The notes below the pieces were generated by a model, which saw only the letters and a list, made by a program, of their open reading frames with translations, searched no databases and was not told the DNA's origin. From a virus (lineage: Duplodnaviria > Heunggongvirae > Uroviricota > Caudoviricetes), in the IMG/VR virus record IMGVR_UViG_2609459846_000013: a stretch of DNA of 5,496 bases; one strand, written 5' to 3'. Both the position numbers and the translations under genes were made by a program. Below are positions 1-4,725 of the stretch, one piece after another. Position 1 is the first letter of the stretch; every line of letters begins with the position of its first letter.

Positions 1-99
1 AAAAACGGTTGAGGCGCTGATGTGTAACGTCAGTCCGATACAACGGTTAGTCAGCTTCTTGTCGAACTTGAGCTGAAGGATCTTAAAACAGGTTTCCAT
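1..99 (-). CDS. Partial ORF (first 33 codons only; body lies beyond window start) with helix-turn-helix-like N-terminus; candidate transposase (IS21 IstA / Mu-like) or small-terminase/regulator
   Basis: Reverse complement of 1-99 reads ATG (99-97) then METCFKILQLKFDKKLTNRCIGLTLHISASTVF with no stop to the window edge. AGGAG lies 4 nt upstream of the ATG (rc of 101-109). The ...R.IG.TL.IS.STV pattern resembles N-terminal HTH motifs. Too short for the supplied ORF track. Identity is a guess. Confidence 0.3.
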   Translation of the reverse strand, partial: METCFKILQLKFDKKLTNRCIGLTLHISASTVF

Positions 100-203
100 A
101 GTGCTCCTGGATTTTCTCTTTCTGGACATTGACGTCTCCACTGGTTTAAACACGGCAATGGAGACTGTGGTGAAAAGAGTTAATTCCCGGAGTGACTGGC
201 AGG

Positions 204-350
204 ATGCCAATCAATGATCGGAAGCATGCCAAATCGTGATCGATTGTGATGCCAAACTGTGATCGGAGATGAATGCCAAATCATGATCGATTCGAATGCC
301 AAACTGCGATCGATTCAGATGCCATTTTGCAGGGTAAGCGTAGATCGGAT
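204..350. repeat. Tandem array of ~23-bp direct repeats, each containing a GATC (Dam) site; 5 well-conserved units at 204-325 plus degenerate units to ~350
   Basis: Units start at 204, 226, 249, 273, 296 and 319 (partial), all beginning ATGCCAA(A) and containing (T)GATCG; approximate consensus ATGCCAAAYNRTGATCGRNNNNN. A seventh GATCGG lies at 343-348 and CGGATAC occurs twice (346-352, 356-362). Six GATC sites in about 140 bp. Confidence 0.85.
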
Positions 351-867
351 ACAGGCGGATACTGACTTCATTCAGTTTTGGGGTTGCCGTCTGGTTACGT
401 GCCGCACCTTCTTCGCCGTGTCCCACGACCGCACCCCCGGCAGAAACCAGTTGCTTAAATTCATTACTGTGAATGGTTTTAACAGTACAGATTTTACGCA
501 TCACCGACTCATCAGAAAGCTGACGCATAATTTCTCTGTTCAGTTCCGGGATAACCGTATAACCACCATCAGCCGGAACACTGCCGGACAGGTTGCGGGT
601 TTCCCCGGTCAGAATGTAAGAGCGTAGCTCATTTTTGGTGATTTTATCTTCGACGGGAACACCAGGCTGGTTACGTTCTTCATCAGCCACAGACTCGAGG
701 CGGGAAATTTCTGTGTCGAGGGAATCGGCTTTTGCACGCAGTTCATCAAACTGTTTGCCTTCGTCATCGGTTAGACTGCGGTTTTCACTGTCGGCTTTTT
801 CCAGCAGGGATCGCATCTGGTTTTTCAGGGCGGTTTTTTGCTGGCGGAGTTCGATTAATTTCTTCAT
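211..867 (-). CDS. HK97-fold phage major capsid protein, N-terminal portion only (delta-domain coiled coil plus start of capsid core); probably truncated or interrupted
   Basis: ORF-track protein of 218 aa. The N-terminal ~65 aa are coiled-coil-like (MKKLIELRQQKTALKNQMRSLLEKADSENRSLTDDEGKQFDELRAKADSLDTEISRLE), followed by SGSVPADGGYTVIPELNREIMRQLSDESVMRKICTVKTI...AGGAVVGHGEEGAA, which matches the conserved G-G-Y-x-V-P-E...R-x-hydrophobic...V-G-E-G-A-A block of HK97-family capsids as I recall it. Full-length capsids are usually over 300 aa; here recognisable similarity stops by roughly nt 322-376 and the last ~36 codons are translated from the tandem repeats. Start ATG at 867-865 with only a weak RBS. 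Confidence 0.55.
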   Translation of the reverse strand: MKKLIELRQQKTALKNQMRSLLEKADSENRSLTDDEGKQFDELRAKADSLDTEISRLESVADEERNQPGVPVEDKITKNELRSYILTGETRNLSGSVPADGGYTVIPELNREIMRQLSDESVMRKICTVKTIHSNEFKQLVSAGGAVVGHGEEGAARNQTATPKLNEVSIRLYPIYAYPAKWHLNRSQFGIRIDHDLAFISDHSLASQSITIWHASDH

Positions 868-1100
868 GAAGGTTTTCTCGCATTGGTTAAGATTCAGGAC
901 GTGAAACCAACACGGGGGGAGCGCCGCCCGACACTCTCGGCATCTCGCAGATCAACCCGGCATCGCGCAGGGGGTCAGGCGGCATTGTGGCGGCTCACGT
1001 CTGAGTGCCACACGCCAACATATACATAAAAATCAGTATGTAAACATCAGCCAGAATCACCGAACAACCTGGAACAACCACGAACAAATAATTTACAAAA
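868..1100 (-). promoter_or_regulatory. Intergenic control region upstream of the capsid-like gene; contains paired direct repeats that could be operator/activator sites
   Basis: 233-bp non-coding gap between the terminator and the capsid-like start. Direct repeats CGGCATC(T/G)CGCAG at 938-950 and 958-970 (20 bp apart, two helical turns); CGAACAA at 1061-1067 and 1081-1087 with GAACAACC at 1062-1069 and 1072-1079. No convincing sigma70 -35/-10 pair found by eye on the minus strand, so an activator-dependent promoter is possible. Confidence 0.3.
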
Positions 1101-1104
1101 CCTG

Positions 1105-1136
1105 AAAAAAGGCCCGGAAAAAATCCGGGCCTTTAT
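1105..1136 (-). terminator. Rho-independent terminator (bidirectional hairpin) ending the minus-strand operon
   Basis: Perfect 8-bp stem GGCCCGGA (1111-1118) / TCCGGGCC (1124-1131) with a 5-nt loop. On the minus strand the hairpin is followed by TTTTTT (rc of 1105-1110); on the plus strand by TTTAT. Sits 5-10 nt downstream of the stop of the 1141-1389 ORF. Confidence 0.7.
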
Positions 1137-1140
1137 CGCT

Positions 1141-1389
1141 TTATTGTTTCACTGGCTCCCGCATTCTGCGTCTTATTTTCCACAAATATTCGATCATCGC
1201 TTCCACCTGCTCACGGTTGGTTGCGAAAATTTCCCCGGTCAGTGAGCTACGCAGAAAATCATGATGATCCACAAAAAATAACGCATCGGAAGAAAGCAAC
1301 CGACGATATTTTTTTGCTGTCGTGGTTTCCAGATCATCAAAACCATGAAGCTTTTTATGTTGCTGAACTTCTTCAAATGTCACTGGCAT
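1141..1389 (-). CDS. Hypothetical small protein (82 aa), last gene of the ori-proximal operon
   Basis: ATG at 1389-1387 preceded by AAGGGGGAT, overlapping the upstream gene's stop by 10 nt (ATGCCAGTGA). Basic C-terminus (KIRRRMREPVKQ). No family recognised by eye. Confidence 0.55.
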   Translation of the reverse strand: MPVTFEEVQQHKKLHGFDDLETTTAKKYRRLLSSDALFFVDHHDFLRSSLTGEIFATNREQVEAMIEYLWKIRRRMREPVKQ

Positions 1390-1919
1390 GTATCCCCCTT
1401 TGCTGCCCGGCGCTGGCGCTTGTGCTTCTCATTCAGCACCATCAGCCGTGTTTCTGCCTCCTGCTGTTCCTGTGGTGTCACTTCCCCACATGGCTGGCCT
1501 TTCAGGTCGTAACGTGCGCCACCAGCTATCAGGGCGCGGTAATAGCGCGGAGACTGCGCATAGGATGCCAGCGTCGCACGTAATACCCCCGACCCGAATG
1601 CCAGCCCCCTGACGGCGATATCCTGCATCAGGTCGTCGAATATCCCCACCTTAAGCGGCTTCGGTGCTTTATGGCTGAATAAGTCAGGCCACATCTCAGT
1701 GAGGCGGTTAACGCGTCGGCGGTTTTTGCGCTGCCTTTTGGTCATATGCTGCCACGGTGTCGCCCCTGCGGTCTTCTGTGGCTTCTGCTGTGCGTTCTGA
1801 TTGCCGGGTATCACTTTATGCGCCGATGTGGTTTTATCCTGCTCTTGCGCCGCCTGCGTCGTTTTCTGCGGCGTGCCGTAAATGCCTTTCGGCTTCCGGT
1901 TAATGGTCAGCGTTGTCAT
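1380..1919 (-). CDS. FinO/ProQ-domain RNA-binding protein (RNA chaperone-like), 179 aa
   Basis: The C-terminal half (PLKVGIFDDLMQDIAVRGLAFGSGVLRATLASYAQSPRYYRALIAGGARYDLKGQPCGEVTPQEQQEAE) aligns by eye with the E. coli ProQ N-terminal FinO-like domain as I recall it (PLKIGIFQDLV...[35 protein letters not shown]...). The N-terminal ~80 aa are Lys/Gln/Arg-rich and probably disordered, as in F-plasmid FinO. ATG at 1919-1917 with GGGGGAAGG RBS. Confidence 0.8.
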   Translation of the reverse strand: MTTLTINRKPKGIYGTPQKTTQAAQEQDKTTSAHKVIPGNQNAQQKPQKTAGATPWQHMTKRQRKNRRRVNRLTEMWPDLFSHKAPKPLKVGIFDDLMQDIAVRGLAFGSGVLRATLASYAQSPRYYRALIAGGARYDLKGQPCGEVTPQEQQEAETRLMVLNEKHKRQRRAAKGDTCQ

Positions 1920-1955
1920 GCCTTCCCCCGTAATTACTCTGTTCGCTGTTGTGAA

Positions 1956-2381
1956 TTAAAACGGTATGTTATCCCCGTACGGGTCATCGTGCTGGCTTGT
2001 CTGTTGTTTTGCCCTGTTCAGTGCGTCAGTGGCCTGGCCCTGTTGACCTTTTTTGCCGCCCGGTCGCGCCGTTCGCGCACTGATTACGCTGTCTGCAATA
2101 ACCTGCCAGCCCTGCCGCGTTTCCCCGTTCTGGCCTGTCCACTGGCTCACCTGCATGTTACCCGCCACGCTCACCAGTTCGCCTTTGTGGTGTTTTGCCA
2201 GTGCGTCGGCCTGTCTGCCAAACGCCAGGACAGATAACCACATCGTCGCCGTTCCGTCATCTGCCTGGCTGCACGGCAGGGGAACCGCCATACTCGCCAT
2301 CGCCATTTGTGTCCCTTTGCTGGTGGTCTTTAACTGCGGGTCAGCCACCAGCCGCCCGTAAGCCGCTATCTGTGCTGTCAT
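1956..2381 (-). CDS. ssb: Single-stranded DNA-binding protein (SSB), 141 aa
   Basis: OB-fold signature as in E. coli SSB (GRLVADPQLKTT...MWLSVLAFGRQADALAKHHKGELVSVAGNMQVSQWTGQNGETRQGWQVIADSV), a Gly/Gln-rich linker, and the acidic C-terminal tail ...DDPYGDNIPF (compare E. coli ...DFDDDIPF). ATG at 2381-2379 with GGAGAG RBS; ATGA overlap with the upstream ORF. Confidence 0.85.
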   Translation of the reverse strand: MTAQIAAYGRLVADPQLKTTSKGTQMAMASMAVPLPCSQADDGTATMWLSVLAFGRQADALAKHHKGELVSVAGNMQVSQWTGQNGETRQGWQVIADSVISARTARPGGKKGQQGQATDALNRAKQQTSQHDDPYGDNIPF

Positions 2382-2623
2382 GCTGTCTGCTCTCCGGTTT
2401 TAACGTTGATGGTTGTCACCTGTTCCGCTTCGGCAATCTCCCGTTCTGTCAGCGTGGCAAAGTTTGCCGCTGCCGTGGTCATGAATGCGCTTACCAGTTC
2501 GGGATGTGCTTTTGCGTACCCTTCTCCCGCGTTGCGGTCGATGATTTTTATCGCCACCCTCAGCCAGTGTTCTGTCAAATCAAGGGCGTGAGATTGTGGT
2601 TTTTTTGCGTGCTTCGTTGTCAC
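2378..2623 (-). CDS. Hypothetical small protein (81 aa), first gene after the origin
   Basis: Apparent GTG start at 2623-2621 preceded by TGAGGTAAAG; stop overlaps the ssb ATG (ATGA at 2381-2378), indicating translational coupling. No family recognised. Confidence 0.5.
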   Translation of the reverse strand: MTTKHAKKPQSHALDLTEHWLRVAIKIIDRNAGEGYAKAHPELVSAFMTTAAANFATLTEREIAEAEQVTTINVKTGEQTA

Positions 2624-2910
2624 AGGCTTTACCTCACAGCAATAAAATAAAATTTTTGCATTTTAACCCTTCACCTGTTCACCTTTTGATATTTTCCCTT
2701 TTTATTCATAATGTTAAGGGGTGAACAGTTTCACAAAAACTATTCACCAACTGTTCACCACTGTTCACCCTTAAAGCTCAATAAATAATCAAAAAGGTGA
2801 ACAGTGAATAGTTTGGTGAACAGTTCACAAATAACTGTTCACCCTATAATGTACTGATATAAAAGATATTTATAACAGGGTGAACAGTGGTGAACAGTTA
2901 TTCCATAAGT
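2624..2910. other. Probable origin of replication (iterons flanked by AT-rich unwinding tracts) immediately downstream of the primase-helicase gene
   Basis: Non-coding 287 bp between the primase stop (2911) and the next gene. AT-rich tracts at 2641-2667 and 2845-2876 bracket the iterons. Phage P4 ori/crr carry the same TGTTCACC octamer bound by the alpha protein (recalled knowledge). Confidence 0.7.
2668..2896. repeat. Iteron cluster: about 10 copies of the 8-bp motif TGTTCACC / GGTGAACA in both orientations (P4 type-I-iteron-like)
   Basis: TGTTCACC at 2676, 2752, 2762, 2836; GGTGAACA at 2720, 2796, 2815, 2879, 2889; near-copies TATTCACC 2741, CTTCACC 2669, GTTCACA 2824, GTGAATAG 2805. Two adjacent copies at 2879-2896. 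Confidence 0.85.
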
Positions 2911-4725
2911 TTAATTTTTGCTGTCGTCATTTGTGACCGATGCACATGATGGCATCCAGTCTTCTGAATCCTCTGTCAGTGTCACATTTGAACGCAAACC
3001 GTGCTTCGTTTTCCGTTTTATATACTCCCTGCCATATTCCGCCATTGCCCCCGGCATATCTTTACCGAAGCGCGTCAGTGTTACAGGTTTACCGAATCCG
3101 TGTGCCCTCATATATGCCAGATAGGCGTGATAAAGATACCTGCGCGGACTGAACGGAATAATTTCGGCATTACCCACTAACAGACCATCACACATTACCG
3201 ACGACATGAGATAGCCACAGAAGTCCACCAGCGAATCGCCCTCGCGTTTTATCACCAGAGCTTCTTCTGATTTCTGCTGCTCATACAGCAGGCGTTTAGC
3301 TTCGTCCTGGTCAGAAAAACGAGTAAGCAGATGGCGAATCACAACCGCCAGCTCTCCTTCTATTTTTTCTGCCAGCATGGGGTCGCGCTCGTTCTCCGGT
3401 ACAACCTCCGAAAAATTGAATATCACCCGACGACGTGAGATCCCCCCGCTGCGGTCACTGAATGACATGGCGTTATTGTTCACCGCCAGCACGACCGCCT
3501 GAATGCGTGTTGAGTAGGGGGCTTTATGCTTCGGGTCGATTGCCACCTTGTCACCGCCTGTAATAGCCTTAATTCCTGCGCCATCACCAGCGTAGCGGGT
3601 CATATCCGGCATGATAATCAGCGAAAAGCCAACCACTAACGCGCGTTCCCTTGCATCTTCCAGCGCCTTCATGCTTGCCGATACTGTGTTGGCCTTACCC
3701 GCCAGCATGGTGCAAATCTCCGCCATCACGCTTTTACCACTTCCCCCTGGACCTGTTACCTCAATGAATAACTGCCAGTCGTACCGGTTCGCCAGCACCA
3801 TGAATAATGCAGCCAGCACGCGATCCGTCTTGCGGTCATTCTCTGCCACCGAGCAGCGTAACCACTTCCAGAAATTCGGCGCATGTGTTGCCAGCGTTTC
3901 CCCCTCTGCTGGTGGGCTGAAAGGTAATTCACTGGCAATTAACAACCAGTCGTTTTTGTTATGCTCCCGAAAATTACCTGTTCTGGTATCAAATACCCCG
4001 TTACTGAATCCAATCAGGTTACGGGCTGTATTCCCCATTACAGGCAAACTTAACTTCATGGTATCGACCGCCGATTTAATGGCGTTCTGCGAATAGCTGA
4101 TCTCCGCATCAATGAAAATCTGCGCCATAGCACGCTGTAACTCTTTATCCTGAATCGGCTCCCATACAACGCCGTTGTAATGGTGAACAGTGTCAGAGTC
4201 GGCATGAATCGCCAGTTCACCGCCATAATGTGCCAGGAGAACTTCGCCGCGCTGGCTTGCTCCCATCTGGTTAAGCGCCAGTGGTGCGGCGCTGTCTTCT
4301 GTTTTTTTCTTAACAGGAAGCTGAATCACCAGACCATCAGAAAGATTCTGGCGCTCACGGGCCAGATATTCGCGCCAGTTCTGCACCTCCTGGCCGTGCA
4401 TACCCTCAGGATAAAAATTTGCATCCTGTACGCCTGCCGCCGCCAGCTTCTGACCAATCGCCTTTATCATTACTGGCGCAAGATATCCGGCCCTGAATAT
4501 GCGCACGGATTTTCTGCCTTCCGGCACAATTTGCAGCTTATCCAGTTCGGATAACTGCTGCTCCCCAAGCCACACAGGAGGCTCATTATCTCCGGCCATA
4601 CGCGCGTCATGTTCCTGCCATTGTTTTGCGTGTGACCAGGCATCACTACCCGCAAAAATAATGACTTCTGTTTCTTTGTGTTTTATGCCGCGTGACTGCT
4701 GTTTTACGTTCGGTGCCAGTTTCAT
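2911..4725 (-). CDS. Replication initiator primase-helicase, P4-alpha / D5 family (phage- or plasmid-associated primase C-terminal helicase domain), 604 aa
   Basis: Longest ORF in the window. Walker A GPGGSGKS at residues 325-332, followed by a hydrophobic stretch with an acidic residue (LVVGFSLIIMPDM) and an Asn-rich motif (AVNNN) typical of SF3/D5-type helicases. A D5_N-like region lies upstream (HYGGELAIHADSDTVHHYNGVVWEP). The C-terminal ~120 aa are basic and aromatic-rich and may bind the origin. ATG at 4725-4723 with GGGG RBS; ATGA overlap with the upstream ORF. Primase catalytic motifs were not identified by eye. Confidence 0.9.
   Translation of the reverse strand: MKLAPNVKQQSRGIKHKETEVIIFAGSDAWSHAKQWQEHDARMAGDNEPPVWLGEQQLSELDKLQIVPEGRKSVRIFRAGYLAPVMIKAIGQKLAAAGVQDANFYPEGMHGQEVQNWREYLARERQNLSDGLVIQLPVKKKTEDSAAPLALNQMGASQRGEVLLAHYGGELAIHADSDTVHHYNGVVWEPIQDKELQRAMAQIFIDAEISYSQNAIKSAVDTMKLSLPVMGNTARNLIGFSNGVFDTRTGNFREHNKNDWLLIASELPFSPPAEGETLATHAPNFWKWLRCSVAENDRKTDRVLAALFMVLANRYDWQLFIEVTGPGGSGKSVMAEICTMLAGKANTVSASMKALEDARERALVVGFSLIIMPDMTRYAGDGAGIKAITGGDKVAIDPKHKAPYSTRIQAVVLAVNNNAMSFSDRSGGISRRRVIFNFSEVVPENERDPMLAEKIEGELAVVIRHLLTRFSDQDEAKRLLYEQQKSEEALVIKREGDSLVDFCGYLMSSVMCDGLLVGNAEIIPFSPRRYLYHAYLAYMRAHGFGKPVTLTRFGKDMPGAMAEYGREYIKRKTKHGLRSNVTLTEDSEDWMPSCASVTNDDSKN

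What the first reader, a model, noticed from the sequence alone, without database searches (positions are those of the whole stretch)
1380..1919. Mobile-element-encoded FinO/ProQ-domain RNA chaperone with a long basic disordered N-terminus
Seen: the C-terminal ~95 residues align by eye with the ProQ/FinO fold (PLKVGIF.DL...Y..S.RY...L.AGG.R.DL.G.PCGE), and the N-terminal ~80 residues are low-complexity and rich in K/Q/R/T. Established: FinO-domain proteins bind structured RNAs and terminator hairpins and control plasmid conjugation (FinO/FinP) or global sRNA networks (ProQ). Inference: in a satellite/prophage context this could tune the element's own replication or packaging transcripts, or reprogram host or helper-phage RNAs.
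Basis: partly seen in the sequence, partly recalled or inferred. Interest (0 to 1): 0.6.

Follow-up and report, generated by a model that had tools for sequence, protein, structure and literature searches.

The report
Satellite-encoded FinO-type RNA chaperone
A phage satellite (a capsid-forming PICI) in the E. coli chromosome carries a genuine but unstudied relative of the plasmid RNA chaperone FinO; the domain call is correct and already in public annotation, so it is a new member of a known family whose RNA targets remain unknown.

Summary
Window 1380-1919 (minus strand) encodes a 179-aa protein that matches Pfam ProQ/FinO (PF04352) at 85 bits against a cut-off of 27. Its AlphaFold model matches only FinO-domain structures in the PDB. 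Residues 1-53 are predicted disordered and basic, but under purifying selection.

The architecture is FinO-like, not ProQ-like: tail, long N-terminal helix, core, C-terminal helix, and no Tudor domain. The extreme N-terminus carries a short motif (L-T-I-N-R-K-P-K-G) that also occurs in F-plasmid FinO and in many distant FinO-domain proteins. The 3'-nucleotide pocket residues are conserved. The hairpin-binding Ser-Lys N-cap is replaced by G-x-G.

The gene lies in a capsid-forming PICI satellite, at the distal end of the early/replication operon, overlapping a small downstream ORF and followed by a strong terminator. Relatives occur in about 20% of complete E. coli genomes, always on the chromosome. 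The experimentally studied prototype EcCIEDL933 lacks the gene, so it is an optional module.

It most likely binds terminator-type 3' ends and promotes RNA pairing. The targets are unknown. NCBI already names it "ProQ/FINO family protein". Verdict: new member of a known kind, moderate interest.

The parts
1380..1919 (-). CDS of the FinO-domain protein (179 aa plus stop codon)
   Evidence: ORF list; Pfam PF04352 at 85 bits; structure model and FinO-only fold matches; PGAP name 'ProQ/FINO family protein' in 99.8%-identical records
1921..1929 (-). Shine-Dalgarno sequence GGGGGAAGG of the long (179-aa) form
   Evidence: Sequence upstream of the ATG. The commonest variant in related loci reads GGGGAAGG.
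1878..1919 (-). Codons 1-14: conserved N-terminal motif M-T-x-L-T-I-N-R-K-P-K-G-I-Y, shared with FinO
   Evidence: M1, L4, T5 and K9 are at least 90% conserved in the family. The relaxed motif occurs in 24 of 113 distant representatives within their first 25 residues, against 0.33+/-0.56 in shuffles. FinO begins MAEQKRPVLTLKRKTEG. Synonymous sites vary freely here (pS 0.295, dN/dS 0.31), so the constraint is on the protein.
1755..1877 (-). Codons 15-55: basic, T/Q/K-rich disordered spacer of variable length
   Evidence: pLDDT below 50; composition; dN/dS 0.35; all indels in frame. A 3-aa indel here is the only difference from the protein of the closest record. Distance from the motif to the WPxLF anchor is 59-74 residues in the family.
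1680..1754 (-). Codons 56-80: Arg-rich segment TKRQRKNRRRVNRL forming the long N-terminal helix
   Evidence: Helix 61-76 at pLDDT about 87-89. K65, R69 and L73 are invariant; T60, Q63, R64, N66 and R72 are at least 90% conserved. dN/dS 0.17.
1476..1679 (-). Codons 81-148: FinO-domain core with the 3'-nucleotide pocket (K90, G92, Y126, R136), R114, and the G109-x-G111 substitute for the Ser-Lys N-cap
   Evidence: Alignments to ProQ, FinO and RocC. Residue roles from PMC7192607 and PMC9674577. Conservation.
1383..1475 (-). Codons 149-179: long basic C-terminal helix; its end is variable in the family
   Evidence: Helix 149-175; dN/dS 0.56 and 22% gaps
1141..1389 (-). orf82 (82 aa, PHROG 1957, no Pfam family). 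Its start overlaps the ProQ/FinO stop by 10 nt. It travels with the capsid module.
   Evidence: The overlap is conserved in 21 of 21 cf-PICI-type loci. A 40%-identical homologue (E=2e-21) precedes the capsid gene in EcCIEDL933, which has no ProQ/FinO gene. Not related to PerC.
1105..1134 (-). Intrinsic terminator closing the operon: AAAGGCCCGGA-UUUUU-UCCGGGCCUUU followed by UUU. Candidate ligand of the protein.
   Evidence: 11-nt arms 100% complementary. dG -23.2 kcal/mol, z=-4.75, 0 of 200 shuffles fold as well. Strongest canonical sense-strand terminator of the element. Present in 21 of 21 cf-PICI loci with a compensatory C-G to U-A variant. A-U pairing extended below the stem is typical of ProQ ligands (PMC12001967).
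1956..2381 (-). SSB gene, immediately upstream in the same operon (36-nt gap)
   Evidence: PF00436 at 59 bits, TIGR00621 at 63 bits. SSB lies directly upstream of ProQ/FinO in 31 loci.
2378..2623 (-). orf81 (PHROG 1231, unknown function), overlapping the SSB start by 4 nt; first gene after the ori-like region

Best explanation
The gene encodes a functional FinO-family RNA-binding protein with the architecture of plasmid FinO. It has a conserved N-terminal peptide, a basic disordered spacer, a long Arg-rich helix, the FinO core and a C-terminal helix. It has no ProQ-type linker or Tudor domain.

It is an optional module at the distal end of the early/replication operon of AlpA-type PICI satellites, here a capsid-forming PICI. 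That operon is AlpA-dependent by inference from published PICI biology. The gene is translationally coupled to the next small ORF, so it should be made when a helper phage induces the satellite.

Mechanism, inferred from the solved RocC-RNA complex and from ProQ and FinO mutagenesis: the conserved pocket (K90, G92, Y126, R136, plus R114) clamps the 3'-OH end and the lower stem of an intrinsic-terminator hairpin. This would protect that RNA from 3' exonucleases. [quoted passage not shown]

The most likely ligands are a few of the satellite's own transcripts. First is the conserved terminator that ends its own operon at 1105-1134. A possible second is an antisense transcript next to alpA. Binding would tune the satellite's early-to-packaging programme after transcription.

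Shown here: family, fold, conserved contact residues, selection, synteny and the terminator. Inferred: RNA binding itself, the timing of expression and the targets.
For: Family and fold: PF04352 at 85 bits against 27; PDB sequence hits only to FinO-domain proteins; confident model, with the top 26 fold hits all FinO domains.

Contact residues, mapped with numbering checked against the papers: ProQ K35, R58, Y70, R80 = K90, R114, Y126, R136; RocC K50, G52, R75, Y87, R97 = K90, G92, R114, Y126, R136. All are at least 90% conserved in the family.

Real, selected protein: dN/dS 0.17-0.35 across tail, helix and core; all indels in frame.

FinO-like architecture: hhalign probability 98.3 to FinO 76-170; the N-terminal motif is shared with FinO and with 24 of 113 distant representatives; motif-to-domain spacing is 73 residues here and 75 in FinO. 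Extensions of FinO-family proteins carry the chaperone activity (review PMC9977716).

Setting: always last in int-alpA-Icd-DUF4222-primase(-orf81-SSB)-ProQ in about 80 loci. The gene is overlapped by orf82 in 21 of 21 loci, or by PerC in 54 of 63 loci.

Candidate ligand: a strong terminator with U6 and an A-rich 5' flank, conserved with compensatory changes. Characterised mobile-element FinO proteins (FinO/FinP, FopA/Inc) act on RNAs of their own element.
Against: No RNA partner is demonstrated.

The terminator after the gene is canonical in all 21 cf-PICI loci. In the PerC-class relatives it is canonical in only about half the loci; the rest have a degenerate hairpin or a broken U-run. An equivalent terminator also exists in EcCIEDL933, which has no ProQ/FinO gene. 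So the terminator is an ordinary operon end, not a dedicated ligand.

The prototype cf-PICI is induced, packaged and transferred without this gene, so any role is modulatory.

The highly conserved N-cap Ser and Lys (RocC S70/K71; ProQ K54, whose K54A change strongly reduces binding) are replaced by G109-S110 within a family-wide G-x-G. Hairpin recognition may therefore differ or be weaker.

The antisense-RNA candidate near alpA is mostly explained by protein-coding conservation. Rfam finds no known RNA in the element.
Confidence: 0.5

Rival explanations
1. Same biochemistry (a FinO-type RNA chaperone), but the gene is accessory cargo that acts in trans on host or helper-phage RNAs. In this reading it resembles the PerC virulence regulator to which it is coupled in most relatives. 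It would reprogramme host sRNA networks, or compete with chromosomal ProQ, rather than regulate the satellite itself.
For: The gene is optional. It is absent from EcCIEDL933, where PerC occupies the same slot between SSB and the orf82 homologue. In 54 of 63 capsid-less relatives it overlaps a PerC-family activator gene by 4 nt. It stays 85-90% identical while the adjacent primase is swapped (43-100% identity, or absent), so it is not tied to one replication system. [quoted passage not shown]
Against: Characterised FinO-like proteins with N-terminal extensions on mobile elements are narrow-specificity regulators of their own element. The gene sits inside the early operon, with only a 36-nt gap after SSB and no room for its own promoter. 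It is therefore probably silent in the uninduced state, which limits any standing effect on host physiology. No host or helper target is known.
Confidence: 0.3
2. The protein works in satellite DNA replication with the neighbouring SSB and P4-type primase, for instance by binding RNA primers, RNA-DNA hybrids or single-stranded DNA at the iteron-rich origin just upstream, rather than acting as a riboregulator.
For: The position is constant: directly after the ori-like iteron region, or after orf81-SSB. The protein is strongly basic overall, pI 10.4 and net charge +18.
Against: The gene is retained beside unrelated or very divergent replicases, and it is missing from EcCIEDL933, which replicates. 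The conserved pocket recognises a 3'-terminal ribose of an RNA hairpin tail. No FinO-domain protein is reported in the papers read here to act in priming.
Confidence: 0.07
3. The gene is a decaying or misannotated relic: either the long N-terminal extension is not translated (real start at M59), or the gene has no function.
For: Some database entries are short forms of 113-121 aa that start near M59. This copy of the satellite is itself damaged, with an IS21-family element splitting the capsid gene.
Against: dN/dS is 0.33 over codons 1-55. All 55 unique alleles differ in length by multiples of 3. A strong SD lies before the upstream ATG. The N-terminal motif is conserved down to about 30% overall identity. 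The family is in 1095 of 5426 complete E. coli genomes.
Confidence: 0.03

Closest known systems
FinO (fertility inhibition protein of F-like IncF plasmids; PDB 1dvo)
   Same: FinO-domain core (34% identity over 95 columns, hhalign probability 98.3, rmsd 2.1 A over 102 columns). Same order of parts: short conserved N-terminal peptide (FinO LTLKRKTEG, here LTINRKPKG), basic disordered spacer, long N-terminal helix, core, C-terminal helix, at almost the same spacing. Encoded on a mobile element.
   Different: Scores 67.7 bits against the 136-bit cut-off of the NCBIfam FinO model. Chromosomal satellite, never on plasmids (0 of 1565 places). Not at the end of a tra operon. No FinP/traJ-like pair identified. 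The N-cap is G-x-G.
ProQ (enterobacterial global RNA chaperone; N-terminal domain, PDB 5nb9)
   Same: Best sequence match of the core (72.6 bits with the family profile). K35, R58, Y64, Y70, R80, D82 and G85 are conserved. Its own operon terminator has the A-rich 5' flank typical of ProQ ligands.
   Different: 59 bits against the 127-bit cut-off of the ProQ equivalog model. No linker or C-terminal Tudor-like domain: the protein ends at residue 179 after one helix. It has an N-terminal extension instead. ProQ K54 corresponds to Ser/variable here.
FopA (FinO-domain protein of Salmonella plasmid pCol1B9, partner of the Inc antisense RNA)
   Same: A FinO-domain protein encoded on a mobile element. 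As described in the review, it stabilises an element-encoded antisense RNA that controls the replication initiator. This is the functional model most comparable to a satellite gene placed beside the replication genes.
   Different: No Inc/repZ-like antisense pair was found in this satellite.
Minimal FinO-domain proteins NMB1681 (N. meningitidis ProQ, PDB 3mw6) and RocC (L. pneumophila, PDB 7rgt and 7rgu)
   Same: Best structural matches (E=2e-6, target-normalised TM 0.78-0.83). The 3'-nucleotide pocket seen in the RocC-RocR complex is fully conserved.
   Different: Those are chromosomal, and their extensions are C-terminal. The RocC N-cap S70-K71 is not conserved here.

Membership tests
ProQ/FinO domain family (Pfam PF04352) | Sequence matches the family HMM above the curated gathering score | tested here: met
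   85 bits against 27, E=4.5e-24, profile positions 5-108 of 109
ProQ/FinO domain family (Pfam PF04352) | FinO fold | tested here: met
   AF2 pLDDT 87-95 over residues 61-170. The top 26 Foldseek PDB hits are all FinO-domain structures, target TM 0.6-0.83, rmsd 2.1-2.6 A for the best-fitting chains. The next hit has E=3.
ProQ/FinO domain family (Pfam PF04352) | Conserved 3'-terminal-nucleotide pocket (RocC G52, Y87, R97; ProQ G37, Y70, R80) and the near-invariant Arg (RocC R75, ProQ R58) | tested here: met
   G92, Y126, R136 and R114 are present and at least 90% conserved in the family. Roles from PMC9674577 and PMC7192607.
ProQ/FinO domain family (Pfam PF04352) | Helix N-cap motif that binds the hairpin backbone (RocC S70-K71-S72; ProQ K54) | tested here: not met
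   The aligned residues are G109-S110-G111. The family consensus is F-G-x-G-A-L-R, with G109 and G111 at least 90% conserved and the middle position variable. The helix position is kept in the model. Whether a Gly N-cap still binds phosphates is unknown.
ProQ/FinO domain family (Pfam PF04352) | Binds structured RNA (terminator hairpin plus a 3' tail ending in 3'-OH) | not testable with these tools
   Needs EMSA, ITC or CLIP
FinO proper (NCBIfam NF010317) | Scores above the curated cut-off of the FinO model | tested here: not met
   67.7 bits against 136
FinO proper (NCBIfam NF010317) | Encoded on an F-like conjugative plasmid and acting with the FinP antisense RNA on traJ | tested here: not met
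   All 1565 places in E. coli genomes are chromosomal. The context is a PICI satellite. No tra genes or FinP-like RNA are present, and Rfam finds nothing.
FinO proper (NCBIfam NF010317) | Disordered basic N-terminal extension followed by a long N-terminal helix | tested here: met
   The pairwise similarity of the two tails alone is weak (p about 0.02 for the first 25 residues, not significant over the whole tails). The support comes from the many intermediates.
ProQ proper (NCBIfam NF003434 equivalog) | Scores above the curated cut-off; N-terminal FinO domain plus linker plus C-terminal Tudor-like domain | tested here: not met
   59.1 bits against 127. The domain lies in the C-terminal half, and the protein ends after one helix at residue 179.
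Capsid-forming PICI (cf-PICI), the element that carries the gene | [quoted passage not shown] | tested here: met
   Annotated regions L001 and L002; AlpA PF05930 at 66 bits; definition from bioRxiv 10.1101/2022.09.08.507074. L002 sits at the same phoQ-roxA site as the prototype EcCIEDL933. In the window's own copy the capsid gene is split by an IS21-family element.
Capsid-forming PICI (cf-PICI), the element that carries the gene | Induction by a helper phage, and packaging into its own small capsids | not testable with these tools
   Shown experimentally only for EcCIEDL933
Known anti-phage defence systems (PADLOC) | Match to a defence-system protein model | tested here: not met
   No hit for the protein, orf82, orf81, SSB or PerC

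The most novel reading that the evidence does not exclude
The protein is one half of a FinOP-like 'fertility inhibition' circuit for phage satellites. Made from the AlpA-induced early operon, it would stabilise a small cis-antisense RNA transcribed opposite the gene that follows alpA. The candidate unit lies in the same element at L001 18641-18725: an extended -10 box TGATATAAT, a roughly 70-nt RNA, and a GC hairpin with U7. The protein would promote pairing of that RNA with the alpA-proximal transcript. The result would be negative feedback on satellite induction, analogous to FinO/FinP acting on traJ. The shared N-terminal motif would then mark an ancient FinO lineage exchanged between plasmids and satellites.
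Probability: 0.1. Interest if true: 0.7.

Novelty: new member of a known kind. Interest (0 to 1): 0.4.

Why it matters
FinO-domain proteins are the third major class of bacterial RNA chaperones. The characterised mobile-element members, FinO and FopA, control plasmid conjugation and replication. None has been studied on a phage satellite.

This subfamily is in about one in five complete E. coli genomes. It sits in the induction and replication operon of PICIs, which move virulence and defence genes between bacteria. In most relatives it is translationally coupled to a PerC-type virulence activator.

If it controls satellite or helper RNAs, it would add a post-transcriptional layer to satellite-helper conflict. 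It would also mean that many pathogenic E. coli carry a second or third ProQ-like protein that could confound ProQ interactome studies.

Two smaller points would interest specialists. An N-terminal motif is shared by FinO and many FinO-like proteins, which argues against fully independent origins of their extensions. And the Ser-Lys N-cap is replaced by G-x-G.

Tried and rejected
1. Rfam scan of the whole element at E<=1: only chance miRNA-like hits on the palindromic iteron region.
2. Consensus promoter and terminator scan: counts no higher than in shuffles. It also missed the real terminator, because the stem extends into the T-run.
3. My own permissive sigma-70 scan paired with terminators, looking for antisense RNAs: 178 promoter-like sites on one strand, so uninformative and abandoned.
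4. orf82 as a divergent PerC: no alignment at all, and no Pfam hit even at E<=10.
5. Direct pairwise similarity of the query tail and the FinO tail: not significant over the full tails, p about 0.02 for the first 25 residues. The motif became convincing only with the distant intermediates.
6. sRNA candidate between alpA and hyp57: looked strong at first, with an invariant extended -10 box, two hairpin variants with compensatory pairs, presence in 55 of 64 loci and in 1091 genomes. Controls then showed three things. It lies inside the 5' coding region of a minus-strand ORF. The largest locus groups lack both the -10 box and the U-run yet keep the encoded peptide. Its 3' part occurs in the ProQ-less EcCIEDL933. 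Its conserved 12-mer has no complementary site elsewhere in the element. Kept only as a side observation.
7. The operon terminator as a dedicated, universally conserved ligand: rejected, because it is degenerate in many PerC-class loci and is present without ProQ in EDL933.
8. Defence-system role: no PADLOC hits.
9. Literature: the cf-PICI papers and one held supplement never mention ProQ or FinO. [quoted passage not shown]
Full report
**What is there.** Window 1380-1919 (minus strand) is an ATG-initiated ORF of 179 codons. A strong Shine-Dalgarno sequence, GGGGGAAGG, lies just upstream of the ATG.

The protein matches Pfam PF04352 (ProQ/FinO) at 85 bits against a gathering score of 27. The match covers nearly the whole profile, at residues 67-171. 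Against PDB sequences it hits only FinO-domain proteins: the E. coli ProQ N-terminal domain, FinO, NMB1681, a Legionella ProQ homologue and RocC.

An AlphaFold2 model built on 48 family members is confident over residues 61-170, with pLDDT 87-95. It shows a long helix at 61-76, a helical core with a small beta-hairpin at 93-146, and a long helix at 149-175. The top 26 Foldseek matches in the PDB are all FinO-domain structures, with rmsd 2.1-2.6 A for the best-fitting chains. After them nothing is significant.

**The N-terminal tail.** Residues 1-53 have pLDDT below 50. Residues 1-66 have pI 10.9, net charge +10, 50% K/Q/R/T and 14% hydrophobic residues. So "long, basic, disordered" is right. 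The disordered part is about 55 residues rather than 80, because residues 56-80 form the Arg-rich helix that leads into the core.

The tail is translated and selected. dN/dS is 0.33 over codons 1-55, against about 0.2 for helix and core. All 55 distinct alleles differ in length by multiples of three. The only difference from the protein of the closest public record is a 3-residue in-frame indel inside the tail.

The tail is not a featureless spacer. M1, L4, T5, K9, D28 and K29, and the block T60-L73, are conserved in at least 90% of the family.

**A motif shared with FinO.** The first 14 residues (M-T-x-L-T-I-N-R-K-P-K-G-I-Y) recur at the N-terminus of distant FinO-domain proteins. Examples are MTEQKRPTLTIKRKPK, MEEQKRPVLSLKR and MTEKRPTLSIKRKP.

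A relaxed pattern is found within the first 25 residues of 24 of 113 representatives. Shuffles give 0.33+/-0.56, and other 25-residue sequence windows give 0.3%. F-plasmid-type FinO, fetched from a real plasmid record, begins MAEQKRPVLTLKRKTEG. The distance from the motif to the WPxLF anchor of the domain is 73 residues here and 75 in FinO.

Two caveats apply. The pairwise tail similarity alone is weak. The representatives were ranked by a search that included the tail, so the 24 of 113 figure is enriched by the way they were selected.

The 2023 family review calls the extensions extremely dissimilar and independently acquired, and it does not mention such a motif. I did not find the motif described, but my literature access is partial.

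**Contact residues.** I checked E. coli ProQ numbering against the mutant table of PMC7192607, and RocC numbering against PMC9674577.

- The 3'-nucleotide pocket is intact. RocC K50, G52, Y87 and R97 (ProQ K35, G37, Y70 and R80) correspond to K90, G92, Y126 and R136.
- The near-invariant RocC R75 (ProQ R58) corresponds to R114.
- All of these are at least 90% conserved in the family.
- The helix N-cap that binds the hairpin backbone (RocC S70-K71; ProQ K54, where K54A strongly reduces binding) is G109-S110-G111 here. The family consensus is F-G-x-G-A-L-R.

This is a real departure from the family norm. Its consequence cannot be judged without experiments.

**Which family member it is.** It is neither FinO nor ProQ proper. 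It scores 67.7 bits against the 136-bit cut-off of the NCBIfam FinO model, and 59.1 bits against the 127-bit cut-off of the ProQ model.

It is roughly equidistant from both in the core, at about 35% identity. In architecture it is FinO-like, with no linker or Tudor domain.

At 50% clustering, 2125 protein clusters in the public library match at E<=1e-3, but only 9 match at E<=1e-30. It therefore belongs to a narrow enterobacterial branch of a large superfamily.

**Where it sits.** The window is E. coli chromosome, 99.8% identical over its full length to strain E203449. The surrounding element of about 15 kb runs:

- integrase, AlpA (PF05930), two small genes on the opposite strand, and Icd-like;
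- three small ORFs, DUF4222, a P4-type primase, and an iteron-rich region;
- orf81, SSB, ProQ/FinO, orf82, and a terminator;

There are no tail or lysis genes. This matches the published definition of a capsid-forming PICI. A sister copy occupies the same phoQ-roxA site as the prototype EcCIEDL933. In the window's own copy an IS21-family element splits the capsid gene, so this particular island is probably unable to make capsids.

**Distribution and synteny.** A blastn search with the gene finds relatives in 1095 of 5426 complete E. coli genomes. There are 1565 places, all chromosomal, with up to 9 in one genome. The only phage matches are distant, below 41% identity. The plasmid matches are FinO itself, at about 35% identity.

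In about 80 IMG/VR loci and 2 Escherichia genome loci, the gene is always the last gene of the int-alpA-Icd-DUF4222-primase(-orf81-SSB) block. It stays 85-90% identical while the primase next to it ranges from 43% to 100% identity, or is replaced.

Two classes follow it. In 21 cf-PICI-type loci, orf82 overlaps its stop by 10 nt and the capsid module comes next. In 54 of 63 capsid-less PICIs, a PerC-family activator (PF06069) overlaps its stop by 4 nt.

**The decisive control.** The prototype EcCIEDL933 has no ProQ/FinO gene at all (tblastn finds nothing). Its order is DUF927 replicase, a small ORF, SSB, PerC, an orf82 homologue (40% identity, E=2e-21), then capsid.

That element is induced, packaged into its own capsids and transferred. 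So this gene is an optional module in a variable slot, not part of the core satellite machinery. This also explains why the cf-PICI papers never mention it.

**Candidate RNA partners.** The operon ends 6 nt after orf82 in a textbook intrinsic terminator at 1105-1134 on the minus strand. It has 11-nt perfectly complementary arms and a U-run. Its dG is -23.2 kcal/mol with z=-4.75, and it is the strongest canonical sense-strand terminator in the element.

Its A-rich 5' flank can extend pairing into the U-tail. Published work associates this feature with ProQ ligands, whereas FinO ligands have a purine-purine mismatch at that position.

The terminator is present in all 21 cf-PICI loci with a compensatory C-G to U-A variant. 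A related hairpin (GCCGGGAUUUUUCCCGGC plus U6) follows PerC in many capsid-less elements. In a large subgroup, however, the hairpin is degenerate or the U-run is broken. EDL933 has an equivalent terminator without the gene. The terminator is thus a plausible ligand but not a dedicated one.

A second lead was a promoter-hairpin-U7 unit on the opposite strand next to alpA. Controls largely dissolved it (see the list of things tried).

No Rfam family is present, and there is no defence-system signature.

**How it most likely works.** What is shown: a selected, FinO-fold protein with an intact 3'-end pocket, a FinO-type N-terminal extension, a constant place at the end of the satellite's early operon, and translational coupling to the next ORF.

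What is inferred from established family knowledge: it binds the 3'-OH end and lower stem of terminator-type hairpins, it protects them, and it uses the basic extension to promote RNA-RNA pairing.

FinO-like proteins with N-terminal extensions on mobile elements are narrow regulators of their own element. I therefore favour satellite transcripts as targets, at about 0.5 for the whole statement. The biochemical class alone I put near 0.95. The main rival, at about 0.3, is that the gene is trans-acting cargo aimed at host or helper RNAs, like its frequent partner PerC. A replication role and a relic gene are unlikely.

**Novelty.** NCBI's pipeline already names the product "ProQ/FINO family protein". 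A 2026 survey lists such a gene as PICI cargo, and the family review notes phage-encoded homologues in general terms. I found no experimental study of this subfamily.

It is a new member of a known kind. The side findings of moderate interest are the FinO-type N-terminal motif, the G-x-G N-cap, the coupling to PerC, the optional-module status, and the presence in about 20% of complete E. coli genomes.

Noticed in passing
window 1-330 (L001 9792-12330): An IS21-family element (istA/istB, ISSso4-like) is inserted in the major capsid gene. Only the first 179 or so codons of the capsid gene remain in the window (331-867, minus strand), so this copy of the satellite is probably unable to build capsids. 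Only one public record, E. coli E203449, shares this junction.
   Followed up: partly
window 2663-2912: Dense array of CTGTTCACC / GGTGAACAG repeats in both orientations (23 inverted pairs, 4 direct-repeat families), between the primase gene and orf81. It looks like an iteron-type origin. From memory, the TGTTCACC core matches the phage P4 ori/crr iterons bound by the alpha primase. It produced spurious miRNA-like Rfam hits.
   Followed up: partly
window 868-1104 (spacer between the terminator and the capsid ATG): The spacer between orf82 and the capsid gene is almost invariant across cf-PICI loci, even where the capsid gene is only 68% identical. It holds a 13-nt direct repeat CGGCATC(T/G)CGCAG at 938-950 and 958-970, 20 nt apart, which is a candidate regulator-binding site or leader element of the packaging operon.
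   Followed up: partly
window ~1040-1090; L001 19328-19390: Three GAACAAC repeats (GTTGTTC on the coding strand) lie just downstream of the operon terminator. They are conserved in EcCIEDL933, and similar GTTGTTC/GTTGTGTC repeats lie beside the integrase gene. They could be AlpA/Vis-type or integrase arm-type sites. Seen by eye only, with no statistics.
   Followed up: no
L001 18641-18725, plus strand (about 1.2 kb beyond the right end of the window, same element): sRNA-like unit opposite alpA: an extended -10 box TGATATAAT, a roughly 70-nt transcript with a near-invariant GGUUAAUUGUUC, and a GC hairpin with U7. It overlaps, in antisense, the 5' coding part of the ORF that follows alpA. The full unit is present in only about 19 loci. 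Elsewhere only the coding sequence is kept. The 3' part is also present in the ProQ-less EcCIEDL933. It could be a cis-antisense RNA, but this is unresolved.
   Followed up: yes
L042 9528-9815 and 54 other loci: In capsid-less PICIs the ProQ/FinO gene is translationally coupled (4-nt overlap) to a PerC-family transcriptional activator gene. PerC/Pch proteins are known activators of the LEE virulence island. The pairing of an RNA chaperone with PerC does not appear in the papers searched.
   Followed up: partly
L091 (E. coli O157:H7 EDL933, 3054562-3068993): The prototype cf-PICI EcCIEDL933 has a different replicase (DUF927) and carries PerC but no ProQ/FinO gene in the slot between SSB and the orf82 homologue. 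That slot is a variable cargo site of these satellites.
   Followed up: yes
window 1141-1389 (orf82); L091 8480-8704: orf82 (PHROG 1957, no Pfam family) is the conserved small gene directly upstream of the capsid module, both in this element and in EcCIEDL933 (40% identity). Its position suggests a role in the packaging module or its control. Function unknown.
   Followed up: partly
L002, just after the capsid gene (record orientation about 11372-11387): A second canonical terminator (GGGGGCUUCGGCCUCC plus U5) lies 9 nt after the major capsid gene stop. This may raise capsid mRNA over the downstream head genes, as in many phages.
   Followed up: no
L042 14294-16024: The capsid-less PICI carries a 576-aa ORC/CDC6-like AAA ATPase with a C-terminal zinc ribbon in its distal accessory region. 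It has only a marginal PADLOC hit and may be an uncharacterised defence candidate.
   Followed up: no
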